In this document: one piece after another, positions 1,294 to 2,190 of the stretch
How positions within the stretch are numbered: position 1 is the stretch's first letter
Layout: every line of letters starts with the position of its first letter
Source of the DNA: a virus
Lineage: Duplodnaviria > Heunggongvirae > Uroviricota > Caudoviricetes
Length of the DNA: 12,826 nt
Direction: 5' to 3' (one strand)
Virus record (IMG/VR): IMGVR_UViG_2585427758_000013
Notes under the pieces: generated by a model
The model's database searches: none
Told to the model about the DNA's origin: nothing
What the model saw: only the letters and a program-made list of their open reading frames with translations
Program-made: the position numbers and the translations under genes

Positions 1294-1414
1294 TACCCAA
1301 TTTTTCTGAATCTAAAAAGCGCCTGCGGGCGCTTTAAGTAGAGGTTTAATCATTTGAAAATAAATGGATTTTATTTTTAAGTGTCCATATAACGTCCATC
1401 TTTGAATGCAAAAA

Positions 1415-1448
1415 GCCCACAGTTTCTATGCTGTGGGCTTTGTTTTTT
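1415..1448 (+). terminator. rho-independent terminator downstream of serS
   Basis: Stem gcccacag (1415-1422), loop tttctatg, stem ctgtgggc (1431-1438), followed by tttgtttttt. A weaker GC hairpin gcgcc-tgcg-ggcgc at 1319-1332 sits directly after the serS stop. Confidence 0.6.
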
Positions 1449-1470
1449 GGTGTCCTCATGAGTGAGGGAA

Positions 1471-1504
1471 CCAAAAAGAAAACCCGCAGTTTTTACGCTG
1501 CGGG
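1471..1504 (-). terminator. rho-independent terminator for the minus-strand hok-like transcript
   Basis: On the minus strand: stem cccgcag / ctgcggg (1483-1489 and 1498-1504) followed by TTTTCTTTTT (complement of 1471-1482). Lies about 95 nt 3' of the hok-like stop. Confidence 0.5.
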
Positions 1505-1598
1505 CTTGTTGTTCACGTCAACTGGAAATAGGGTGTCTTTTCGACCTTTACCCTGGCAACCGATTGACGGGGAAGTTGCCTTCCCCGTCGCGGTTTCC

Positions 1599-1739
1599 TT
1601 ACTGCTTACACTGTAAGAACGCCGCAAACTCCGCTCCCCAGAAACTCATCCGTATTTCACACAGCGAACCGTGCAGCATCCAGATGATGAGGATTGCCGT
1701 CACGCAGAACGTGATGGCCGTAAGCGATTTTTGCGACAT
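1599..1739 (-). CDS. hok: Hok/Gef-family type I toxin (46 aa small membrane peptide)
   Basis: Hand translation of the minus strand from ATG at 1739-1737 gives MSQKSLTAITFCVTAILIIWMLHGSLCEIRMSFWGAEFAAFLQCKQ, stop TAA at 1601-1599. It has a hydrophobic N-terminal helix, the SLCEIR motif and an AAF...C-terminal tail as in Hok/HokA/RelF. AAGGAG Shine-Dalgarno 8 nt upstream. Not in the supplied ORF track (too short). Confidence 0.6.
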   Translation of the reverse strand: MSQKSLTAITFCVTAILIIWMLHGSLCEIRMSFWGAEFAAFLQCKQ

Positions 1740-1869
1740 AGCACTTGCTCCTTTTCCGGAGAGGCGCTAACCTTTCACTTGTCAAGGTAATGCGGTTAGG
1801 GCCTCGGTTAAACAGAGATGTTTTCCGGGGCCTTTCCACATCTGGCCTTCGGGTATTCCCTCCGACCAT
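1657..1869 (-). CDS. mok: Mok-like overlapping reading frame (70 aa)
   Basis: 70-aa ORF in a different frame that starts upstream of the hok-like gene and ends inside it, the arrangement seen in hok/mok/sok loci. No strong Shine-Dalgarno; the exact start is uncertain. Confidence 0.4.
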   Translation of the reverse strand: MVGGNTRRPDVERPRKTSLFNRGPNRITLTSERLAPLRKRSKCYVAKIAYGHHVLRDGNPHHLDAARFAV

Positions 1870-1929
1870 CAGCCGAAAGGCACCCGCGCGTAATCTATCG
1901 CGTTTTTGTTACTCCGGCAATTCTGCCTG

Positions 1930-2190
1930 TTAATTCTGAGATAAAGGCAAACTCATCTGATTGTTTCCCCTGTGTGAAGCTGGCAACTCATGCCACGGGA
2001 TACCTTCTGAAGAGTGAACGCCGGGGGCGTGTTTCGATGTGAATTTATGGAAAGCTTCCAGTGTTGAGAAACTTATGCCGCATTCCAGGTTGTTACACTG
2101 GTAATATTTTTTCCGTACGGTGTTTGAATCATTTTCCGAACGACTGGTGCGGATACGGGCAGATGCGCCACAAAGCGGACAACGGAACAT
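1930..2190 (-). CDS. ogr: Ogr/Delta-family zinc-finger late-gene transcriptional activator
   Basis: 86-aa ORF beginning MFRCPLCGASARIRTSR...YYQCNNLECGISF: the CPLC...QCxNxxC zinc-finger signature and MF.CPLC N-terminus of P2 Ogr. Lies directly downstream of gpD on the same strand, as in P2. Confidence 0.8.
   Translation of the reverse strand: MFRCPLCGASARIRTSRSENDSNTVRKKYYQCNNLECGISFSTLEAFHKFTSKHAPGVHSSEGIPWHELPASHRGNNQMSLPLSQN

What the first reader, a model, noticed from the sequence alone, without database searches (positions are those of the whole stretch)
1471..1930. Unannotated hok/mok/sok-type type I toxin-antitoxin locus between serS and the tail cluster
A 46-aa minus-strand ORF (1739-1599) absent from the ORF track has a Hok-like sequence (hydrophobic helix, SLCEIR, ...AAF...), a good Shine-Dalgarno, an overlapping 70-aa Mok-like frame (1869-1657) and its own terminator. 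It sits directly 3' of ogr, so its promoter must overlap or abut the ogr 3' end. An antisense Sok-like RNA would be expected on the plus strand around 1840-1925; a weak hairpin plus T-run at 1886-1910 could be its terminator, but I cannot define a promoter. It may be a moron acting as an addiction or abortive-infection module at the prophage end.
Basis: partly seen in the sequence, partly recalled or inferred. Interest (0 to 1): 0.6.

Follow-up and report, generated by a model that had tools for sequence, protein, structure and literature searches.

The report
Known prophage-borne hok/sok toxin-antitoxin locus
The small gene next to ogr is a real Hok membrane-toxin gene with the typical hok messenger-RNA switches and a probable Sok antisense RNA, but public genome records already annotate it, so it is an ordinary known module at the end of a P2-like prophage.

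Summary
The core observation holds. The 46-aa ORF at 1739-1599 (-) is a Hok/Gef toxin: Pfam PF01848 scores 29.9 bits against a cut-off of 22, and PHROG 251 gives E 1e-22. It has its own SD, promoter and terminator. The surrounding ~413-nt unit (1885 to 1472, minus strand) aligns end to end with hok loci of phages, plasmids, Salmonella, Citrobacter and Klebsiella. It shows the family hallmark: a 5' end (tac) that pairs either with a 3' box (fbi) or with an upstream box (ucb), and compensatory changes support both pairings.

Two parts of the interpretation fail. The 70-aa "Mok" frame is a chance ORF: it has no SD, no family hit, and stops in all three frames in 8 of 15 relatives. By homology with R1, Sok lies on the plus strand at about 1780-1843, with its promoter at 1745-1773, not at 1840-1925.

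The locus is not new. RefSeq annotates exactly this ORF as "Hok/Gef family protein". 948 of 5,426 complete E. coli genomes carry the ogr-hok region. P88-like phages carry it too, and Stx phages such as 933W carry an 82%-identical locus.

Side notes: this copy has a rare fbi substitution (A1536, 3 genomes against 272 with G). Every clade member tested scores below Rfam's gathering cut-off.

The parts
1892..1920 (-). hok promoter: -35 TTGCCG (1920-1915), 17-nt spacer, -10 TAGATT (1897-1892). It begins 10 nt after the ogr stop codon.
   Evidence: Coordinates. The -10 pattern TAnAnT is nearly invariant 7 nt upstream of the conserved GGGTGCC in 15 loci. It scores below the generic promoter scan's thresholds, so the assignment rests on conservation and position.
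1472..1885 (-). Predicted full-length hok mRNA (~413 nt), from GGGUGCC (+1, about 1885) to the end of the terminator T run.
   Evidence: Rfam RF01794 model position 1 aligns to 1885. The same model starts at the hok mRNA 5' end in an R1-type plasmid locus. Conservation across 15 loci begins exactly at GGGTGCC and ends after the terminator.
1872..1885 (-). tac element (5' GGGUGCCUUUCGGC), which pairs alternatively with fbi or with ucb.
   Evidence: tac-fbi: 97.7% of cells paired, 3 pairs with compensatory changes. tac-ucb: 96.1% paired, 2 compensatory pairs. Both exceed the slid-partner controls.
1827..1836 (-). ucb (AAAGGCCCC). It is the partner of tac in the 5' stem, and of the GAGG box in the consensus fold of the alignment running from +1 to the fbi end.
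   Evidence: Window MFE pairs 1885-1875 with 1827-1836. The RNAalifold consensus pairs GGCC-CG with CG-AGGCC.
1802..1805 (-). Conserved GAGG box at the position of the R1 mok Shine-Dalgarno. No conserved start codon follows it.
1657..1869 (-). Judged a chance ORF.
   Evidence: No SD, and the ATG sits at +17 inside the tac hairpin. No hit in Pfam, NCBIfam or PHROGs. P88 (93% identical DNA), 933W and others have stops and no start in this frame.
1748..1751 (-). hok Shine-Dalgarno GGAG, 8 nt before the ATG. It can pair with the CUCC just upstream.
   Evidence: The motif is conserved in the alignment.
1599..1739 (-). hok coding sequence: 46 aa, a hydrophobic N-terminal stretch, LCE motif, and two hard-coded cysteines (C27, C44).
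   Evidence: Pfam PF01848 29.9 bits above cut-off 22. PHROG 251 E 1.3e-22. 67 homologues, all those named being called Hok/Gef. RefSeq CDS WP_000078920.1 has the same coordinates. The second codon position varies least.
1565..1590 (-). Conserved stem-loop just after the hok stop codon (3' UTR).
   Evidence: RNAalifold helix with compensatory changes at 5 pairs. The hairpin was also detected.
1531..1545 (-). fbi element (GUCGAAAAGACACCC), complementary to tac. This copy has A at 1536 where relatives have G.
   Evidence: The A variant is in 3 of 5,426 E. coli genomes, against 272 with G in the same 40-mer. A to G restores tac-fbi as the MFE fold.
1472..1507 (-). hok intrinsic terminator (stem 1507-1480, then a T run).
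   Evidence: It is homologous to the terminators of other hok loci.
1745..1773 (+). Predicted Sok promoter: -35 TTGCTC (1745-1750), 17-nt spacer, -10 TAACCT (1768-1773).
   Evidence: Same place and spacing as TTGCGC-17-TATCCT on the antisense strand of the R1-type locus. The -10 is TAACCT or TATCCT in 15 of 15 loci. It falls below the generic scan's thresholds. That those R1 hexamers are the known sok promoter is from my memory. No expression data.
1780..1843 (+). Predicted Sok antisense RNA (~55-65 nt): a variable 5' tail, then stem 1798-1834, then UUUCCACAUCU.
   Evidence: Fold. Positional homology to the R1 antisense-strand sequence. The U tract is weak, so the 3' end is uncertain.
1886..1910 (+). 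It lies over the hok -10 box, outside the hok mRNA.
   Evidence: The hairpin is conserved only in the window and P88. It could at most be a back-up stop for Sok read-through.

Best explanation
[quoted passage not shown] It belongs to a HokA-like, phage-associated clade (PHROG 251). It sits as an accessory module at the ogr-proximal end of a P88-like (Xuanwuvirus, P2-like) prophage inserted downstream of serS. Shown here: the toxin gene; the conserved ~413-nt mRNA unit; and the mutually exclusive tac-fbi and tac-ucb pairings, both with compensatory changes. Inferred from the R1 paradigm: the full-length hok mRNA is made from a weak promoter abutting ogr and is held inert by the 5'-3' (tac-fbi) clamp. 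Slow 3' trimming removes fbi, and tac then switches to ucb. The refolded mRNA is either bound by the short-lived Sok RNA and destroyed, or, once Sok has decayed, translated into a 46-aa inner-membrane toxin that stops or kills the cell. Sok would be transcribed from 1745-1773 on the plus strand and be complementary to leader positions of about +43 to +106. This clade differs from R1 in having no conserved mok leader frame, so Hok is probably translated from its own SD. The biological role is not settled. Candidates are keeping the prophage, excluding other phages, or, as shown for hokW-sokW in Sp5, helping lysis after induction.
For: Protein: Pfam HOK_GEF scores above its cut-off. The closest NCBIfam model is HokA. 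PHROG 251 gives E 1e-22. The protein is 39% identical to R1 Hok over 31 aa, including the SLCEIR and AAF motifs. All 67 database relatives that carry a name are called Hok/Gef. RNA: Rfam RF01794 matches 1885-1726 on the hok-sense strand over its full length, E 1.4e-9, in the same register as in an R1-type locus. The 15-locus alignment is conserved from GGGTGCC to GGCACCC plus the terminator. RNAalifold closes the molecule with a 5'-3' helix. tac-fbi is 97.7% paired and tac-ucb 96.1% paired, each with compensatory changes and each far above the slid controls. The tac-fbi fold is the MFE in 12 of 15 relatives. A nascent 5' hairpin involving tac forms in the first 30-50 nt. Sok: the hexamers and their spacing are conserved at the R1-homologous site. 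The most variable leader segment (+92 to +108) coincides with the predicted Sok 5' tail. Context: RefSeq annotation; presence in phages P88, Chuche and Xuanwuvirus P884B11; the same D-ogr-hok order in a Salmonella prophage. Literature: the R1 mechanism (PMC9841398); hok enrichment in prophages and 42 of 45 tested Hok homologues toxic (bioRxiv 10.1101/2025.08.07.668861); a phage-borne hok/sok that assists lysis (PMC8621323).
Against: There are no expression or toxicity data for this locus. Rfam (48.4 vs 59) and NCBIfam HokA (34 vs 89) both score below their curated cut-offs. The generic promoter scan found nothing, and both promoters match the sigma-70 consensus poorly. The Sok terminator has a weak U tract. 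No mok is present, so the R1 route by which Sok blocks translation cannot apply as such. In this copy the fbi substitution A1536 makes tac-ucb, not tac-fbi, the MFE fold of the full-length RNA by 2.2 kcal/mol. The compensatory changes trace to essentially one split, E. coli-type against Salmonella-type, so they represent few independent events.
Confidence: 0.85

Rival explanations
1. The locus is a genuine hok/sok homologue but functionally dead or decaying in this strain, like the K-12 chromosomal hok loci. It would be carried passively by the prophage.
For: There is no mok frame. A rare substitution lies in the otherwise invariant fbi box. The Sok U tract and both promoters are weak. Chromosomal hokA, hokB and hokC loci were reported unable to mediate post-segregational killing (summarised in bioRxiv 10.1101/2025.08.07.668861).
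Against: The ORF, SD, both promoter-like sites, tac, ucb, fbi and the terminator are all intact and conserved across E. coli, Salmonella, Citrobacter and Klebsiella, with compensatory changes. Lack of mok is a property of the whole conserved clade, not damage specific to this copy. The locus persists in active phages and in 948 E. coli genomes. 42 of 45 tested Hok peptides were toxic (same preprint).
Confidence: 0.2
2. One reading: a three-gene hok/mok/sok locus with a 70-aa Mok starting at 1869 and a Sok RNA at about 1840-1925 that ends at the 1886-1910 hairpin.
For: The ORF and the hairpin with T run exist. Because the homologous Sok terminator has a poor U tract, some Sok transcripts could read on to 1886-1910.
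Against: The ATG at 1869 is at +17 of the mRNA, inside the tac hairpin, with no SD. The frame is closed in P88, 933W and others and has no family hit. The R1-homologous Sok promoter lies at 1745-1773. An RNA confined to 1840-1925 would overlap only the first 46 nt of the hok mRNA. The hairpin overlies the hok -10 box and is not conserved outside the window and P88.
Confidence: 0.05
3. A chance small ORF with no function.
For: 46-codon ORFs are common by chance. The generic promoter scan is negative.
Against: There are significant hits to curated Hok families, conservation of the peptide across genera, and a conserved, covarying RNA architecture around it.
Confidence: 0.01

Closest known systems
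hok/sok (parB) of plasmid R1
   Same: Hok-type toxin with the SLCEIR and AAF motifs. mRNA of about 400 nt with a 5' tac, a ucb, an fbi just before the terminator, and a GAGG box paired with ucb. Antisense-strand promoter-like hexamers sit at the same place with the same 17-nt spacing. The Rfam model built on this leader matches over its full length.
   Different: Only 39% identity over 31 aa. 46 aa against 52 aa. No mok leader frame, whereas an SD-preceded ATG frame is found in the R1-type control. Carried by a prophage, not a plasmid. Scores below the Rfam cut-off.
hokA/sokA of the E. coli chromosome
   Same: Best NCBIfam model. Both cysteines are hard-coded, with a similar W-M/L...SLCE...AAFL.CK pattern. 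It is 43% identical to the HokA sequence as I recall it (that HokA sequence is from memory).
   Different: Scores 34 bits against an equivalog cut-off of 89, so it is not HokA itself. Different genomic location.
hokW-sokW of Stx prophage Sp5/933W (Takada et al. 2021, PMC8621323)
   Same: A hok/sok system carried by a temperate phage of E. coli. It is the only phage-borne one with experimental evidence: toxin, antitoxin RNA, and a role in lysis and phage release after induction.
   Different: It is a different Hok clade (51 aa, MKQQKAM...) and a different locus. The window's relative in 933W is a second hok locus next to lom, 82% identical in DNA and unannotated in AF125520.
PHROG 251 'MokW-like host killing' / RefSeq 'Hok/Gef family protein' WP_000078920.1
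   Same: The window peptide is a full-length member (80.6 bits). RefSeq's CDS has the same coordinates as the window ORF in a record 99.6% identical over 1294-2230.
   Different: The PHROG name is misleading, because the protein is a Hok, not a Mok. These annotations cover only the peptide, not Sok or the mRNA elements.

Membership tests
Hok/Gef toxin family (Pfam PF01848) | Profile score at or above the curated gathering score | tested here: met
   29.9 bits against a cut-off of 22, E 4.1e-7, residues 7-44 on profile positions 5-42 of 42.
Hok/Gef toxin family (Pfam PF01848) | Small peptide with a hydrophobic N-terminal segment, a conserved L-C-E motif, and a conserved acidic residue and second Cys/Tyr near the C terminus | tested here: met
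   46 aa, with L26-C27-E28, E37 and C44 invariant or nearly so in 19 homologues. This matches the conserved positions reported for 1,264 Hok peptides (bioRxiv 10.1101/2025.08.07.668861).
HokA equivalog (NCBIfam NF007290) | Score at or above the equivalog cut-off | tested here: not met
   34 bits against 89. It is HokA-like but not HokA.
hok/sok type I TA locus (R1 paradigm) | Long-range 5'-3' pairing (tac-fbi) that closes the full-length mRNA, with covariation | tested here: met
   Consensus fold. 97.7% paired, 3 compensatory pairs, slid controls 31-45%. It is the MFE in 12 of 15 relatives. In the window itself it is weakened by A1536: tac-fbi lies 2.2 kcal/mol above the MFE.
hok/sok type I TA locus (R1 paradigm) | Alternative tac-ucb stem that shares the tac nucleotides (coupled covariation) | tested here: met
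   96.1% paired, 2 compensatory pairs at the same tac columns that covary with fbi. It is the window MFE.
hok/sok type I TA locus (R1 paradigm) | Overlapping mok leader frame with its own SD, whose translation is needed for hok translation | tested here: not met
   No conserved SD-preceded start. All three frames are closed between the GAGG box and the hok SD in 8 of 15 loci. The same script finds the SD-preceded ATG frame in an R1-type control.
hok/sok type I TA locus (R1 paradigm) | Cis-encoded antisense Sok RNA with its own promoter, complementary to the hok leader | tested here: inconclusive
   Hexamers and spacing are conserved at the R1-homologous site, and the stem-loop is conserved. 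However, the match to consensus is weak, the generic scan is negative, the same bases are also constrained by the sense-strand structure, and there are no transcript data.
hok/sok type I TA locus (R1 paradigm) | 3' processing of the mRNA, instability of Sok, RNase III cleavage of the duplex, and toxicity of the peptide | not testable with these tools
   These need Northern blots, rifampicin chase and induction experiments.
Rfam RF01794 'sok antitoxin (CssrC)' | Covariance-model score at or above the gathering score | tested here: not met
   48.4 bits against 59, E 1.4e-9, full-length match 1-157 on the hok-sense strand. The 12 clade relatives tested score 35.6-57.2 bits, while an R1-type locus scores 87.2.

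The most novel reading that the evidence does not exclude
This phage-associated Hok clade (PHROG 251; window, P88, the lom-adjacent locus of 933W, and Salmonella, Citrobacter and Klebsiella relatives) keeps the tac/ucb/fbi switch and the 'mok SD' box but has lost mok altogether. If so, Hok is translated directly from its own SD, and Sok, which pairs about 30-90 nt upstream of that SD, must act by a route other than blocking a leader peptide. Possible routes are RNase III-triggered decay, or blocking a refolding or standby step. That would be a regulatory variant of the hok paradigm that, as far as the papers I could search show, has not been described.
Probability: 0.4. Interest if true: 0.35.

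Novelty: already known. Interest (0 to 1): 0.2.

Why it matters
For genome annotation it matters little. The toxin gene is already called in RefSeq and in phage records, and the enrichment of hok genes in prophages has been reported. What this analysis adds is a corrected map of the regulatory parts for this clade: the mRNA ends, tac, ucb, fbi, the probable Sok promoter, and the absence of mok. It also shows why automated RNA annotation misses the locus: the Rfam 'sok' model is built on the hok-sense leader, and this clade scores below its cut-off. If the mok-less reading is right, this widespread prophage clade would be a natural test case for how Sok can silence hok without a leader peptide.

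Tried and rejected
1. Rfam at gathering thresholds found nothing in the window. Only the permissive search revealed the sub-threshold RF01794 match.

2. The generic sigma-70 scan found no promoter in 1294-2250. Promoter assignments therefore rest on conservation and on homology with R1.

3. I first took the Stx-phage match to be the published hokW. The primers and the 51-aa HokW of PMC8621323 show that hokW is a different locus, so I dropped that equation.

4. The genome-contig scan returned only 7 loci, three of them on contigs labelled Planococcaceae, Vagococcus and Xanthomonas, which are probably contaminants. I obtained diversity from plasmid hits and exact-protein look-ups instead.

5. 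I looked for a mok with ATG, GTG or TTG starts, then with CTG, ATT or ATC, then for any open frame regardless of start codon. None is conserved.

6. Literature searches for hok in P2-like phages next to ogr, and for mok-less hok loci, returned nothing specific.

7. I considered the 1886-1910 hairpin as the Sok terminator. I rejected it as the primary one because of its position and lack of conservation.

Full report
**What is in the sequence**

The window starts with serS (1-1293, +). On the minus strand it then holds a 46-aa ORF (1739-1599), an Ogr/Delta zinc-finger gene (2190-1930) and a gpD-type tail gene. Identity to E. coli K-12 ends just after the serS terminator, at about 1335.

The 46-aa peptide is MSQKSLTAITFCVTAILIIWMLHGSLCEIRMSFWGAEFAAFLQCKQ.
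- It matches Pfam HOK_GEF above the curated cut-off (29.9 against 22 bits).
- Its best NCBIfam model is HokA, but at 34 bits against a cut-off of 89.
- It is a full-length member of PHROG 251 (80.6 bits).
- It shares SLCEIR and AAF with R1 Hok (39% identity over 31 aa).
- It has GGAG 8 nt before the ATG, and a hairpin with T run at 1507-1480.

**It is already annotated and widespread**

- A RefSeq E. coli chromosome that is 99.6% identical over 1294-2230 annotates exactly this ORF as "Hok/Gef family protein" (WP_000078920.1), next to ogr and serS.
- 948 of 5,426 complete E. coli genomes hold at least 80% of the ogr-hok region.
- Phages P88, Chuche and Xuanwuvirus P884B11 (Peduoviridae, P2-like) carry it, labelled "MokW-like host killing".
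- A locus 82% identical in DNA lies next to lom in Stx phages such as 933W. This is not the published hokW, which encodes a 51-aa MKQQKAM... peptide at another place in Sp5 (PMC8621323).
- Every protein relative that carries a name is called Hok/Gef. They come from E. coli, Shigella, Salmonella and Klebsiella.
- The same D-ogr-hok order occurs in a Salmonella prophage.
- A recent survey catalogued 32,532 hok loci, found them four-fold enriched in prophages, and found 42 of 45 tested peptides toxic (bioRxiv 10.1101/2025.08.07.668861).

**The RNA architecture**

Rfam finds nothing at gathering thresholds. With permissive settings, RF01794 ("sok") matches 1885-1726 on the minus strand over the whole model (48.4 bits, E 1.4e-9). 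The same model hits an R1-type plasmid locus on the hok-sense strand, from the mRNA 5' end to the hok ATG, at 87 bits. The model therefore describes the hok leader, and its position 1 marks the mRNA start. The 12 clade relatives tested score 35.6-57.2 bits, below the cut-off of 59. This explains why pipelines do not flag the RNA.

An alignment of 15 loci (phages, plasmids, E. albertii, Salmonella, Citrobacter, Klebsiella) is conserved from GGGTGCC (window 1885) to GGCACCC (window 1537-1531), followed by a terminator. A TAnAnT box lies 7 nt upstream of the first G.

- RNAalifold closes the molecule with a 5'-3' helix.
- The tac-fbi helix is 97.7% paired, with compensatory changes at three pairs. 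Slid controls give 31-45%.
- The alternative tac-ucb helix is 96.1% paired, with compensatory changes at the same tac columns.
- The compensatory changes trace largely to one split, E. coli-type against Salmonella-type. They are few events, but both partners of tac changed together, which is the signature of the hok mRNA family.
- In 12 of 15 relatives the thermodynamic optimum of the full transcript is the tac-fbi fold.
- The first 30-50 nt form a local hairpin that involves tac. This corresponds to the metastable nascent structure described for R1 (PMC9841398).
- The hok start codon region pairs with the 3' part of the coding region in all 13 sequences of the second alignment.

**Sok**

On the antisense strand of the R1-type locus there are promoter-like hexamers TTGCGC-17-TATCCT. 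I identify these as the known sok promoter from memory. At the homologous place the window has TTGCTC (1745-1750), 17 nt, TAACCT (1768-1773). The -10 box is TAACCT or TATCCT in all 15 loci.

- Transcription would start near 1780.
- The RNA would fold into a stem at 1798-1834, followed by UUUCCACAUCU. The predicted RNA is about 55-65 nt.
- Its 5' tail coincides with the most variable part of the leader, as expected for a specificity determinant.

This is homology and inference, not proof. Both hexamers match the consensus poorly, the generic scan is negative, and the U tract is weak.

The hairpin at 1886-1903 lies upstream of the mRNA start, over the hok -10 box, and is conserved only in the window and P88. 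It could at most be a back-up stop for read-through.

**Mok**

The 70-aa frame at 1869-1657 exists only as an ORF.
- Its ATG is at +17, inside the tac hairpin, with no SD.
- It has no hit in Pfam, NCBIfam or PHROGs.
- In P88 (93% identical DNA), 933W and others the frame is closed.
- Across the clade there is no conserved leader frame. In 8 of 15 loci all three frames contain a stop between the conserved GAGG box and the hok SD.
- The same script finds the SD-preceded ATG frame in the R1-type control.

The GAGG box homologous to the R1 mok SD is nevertheless conserved and pairs with ucb in the consensus fold. This clade therefore keeps the switch but apparently not the leader peptide. How Sok would then block Hok synthesis is open. 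I found no paper addressing this, and the recent survey explicitly left Mok aside.

**A peculiarity of this copy**

The fbi box reads GACACCC (A at 1536) instead of GGCACCC, giving the only C-A mismatch at that pair in the alignment.
- With A, the optimum of the full-length RNA is the tac-ucb fold, and tac-fbi is 2.2 kcal/mol worse.
- Changing A to G restores tac-fbi.
- The A variant is in 3 of 5,426 E. coli genomes. The otherwise identical 40-mer with G is in 272.

It may be neutral, or it may make the clamp leakier. That cannot be decided here.

**How it most likely works**

Shown: the toxin family membership, the mRNA unit, and the alternative pairings.

Inferred from R1 (PMC9841398, PMC4147584): the inert full-length mRNA, 3' trimming, refolding, Sok binding and RNase III decay, and Hok synthesis when Sok is lost.

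No terminator lies between ogr and hok on the minus strand. Transcripts from ogr probably run into hok, which could raise hok mRNA late in lytic growth. That would fit the lysis-assisting role shown for hokW-sokW (PMC8621323), but it is speculation. Prophage retention and exclusion of other phages are equally open.

**Verdict**

This is a correct identification of a known, already annotated module. Its Mok component and its Sok location need correcting.

Novelty: already known. Interest: low.

The most novel reading not excluded is that this widespread prophage clade is a mok-less variant of the hok regulatory scheme.

Noticed in passing
window 1336-1471: This segment is absent from K-12, whose identity ends at about 1335, and from phage P88, whose homology starts at about 1473. 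It holds a second hairpin with T run (1412-1445) that is homologous to the terminators and 3' ends of other hok loci, and it forms an inverted repeat with the hok terminator region (1436-1458 / 1463-1485). It may be an att-related duplication or a relic of an earlier element.
   Followed up: partly
window 1536: There is an A in the otherwise invariant fbi box (GACACCC against GGCACCC). It occurs in 3 of 5,426 E. coli genomes against 272 with G. It shifts the predicted optimum of the full-length hok mRNA from tac-fbi to tac-ucb.
   Followed up: yes
window 1885-1930, minus strand: No terminator-like site lies between the ogr stop codon and the hok mRNA start. The first minus-strand terminator after ogr is the hok one (1507-1480), so ogr transcripts probably read into hok.
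   Followed up: no
Rfam RF01794; L027 182-353 (+), window 1885-1726 (-): The Rfam family named 'sok antitoxin' matches the hok-sense leader, from the mRNA 5' end to the hok ATG, not the antisense strand. The window and the 12 relatives of its clade tested score below its gathering cut-off.
   Followed up: yes
L003 (phage 933W, AF125520) about 1477-1831, minus strand, between lom and L0129: Stx phages carry a complete hok-type locus here, 82% identical to the window's. It is unannotated in the original 933W record and is distinct from the published hokW-sokW.
   Followed up: partly
L020 / L021 (Salmonella enterica) 103-243 and 601-741: Two 46-aa hok genes of this clade lie in tandem, 498 nt apart start to start.
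   Followed up: no
L011 1809-1995 and L022 895-1092: The sRNA STnc540 (Rfam RF02082, 172-186 bits) lies immediately beyond the hok terminator in two Salmonella loci. One of these is the end of a P2-like prophage.
   Followed up: no
L027 (R1-type IncFII plasmid) 294-509: In this plasmid variant the mok ATG is in frame with hok (57 nt apart), and RefSeq annotates only a 33-aa 'Hok' (408-509) although the full 52-aa ORF is present.
   Followed up: no
L006, L007, L010: Contigs labelled Planococcaceae, Vagococcus and Xanthomonas pisi carry this hok at 72-98% identity. They are most likely enterobacterial contamination of those assemblies.
   Followed up: no
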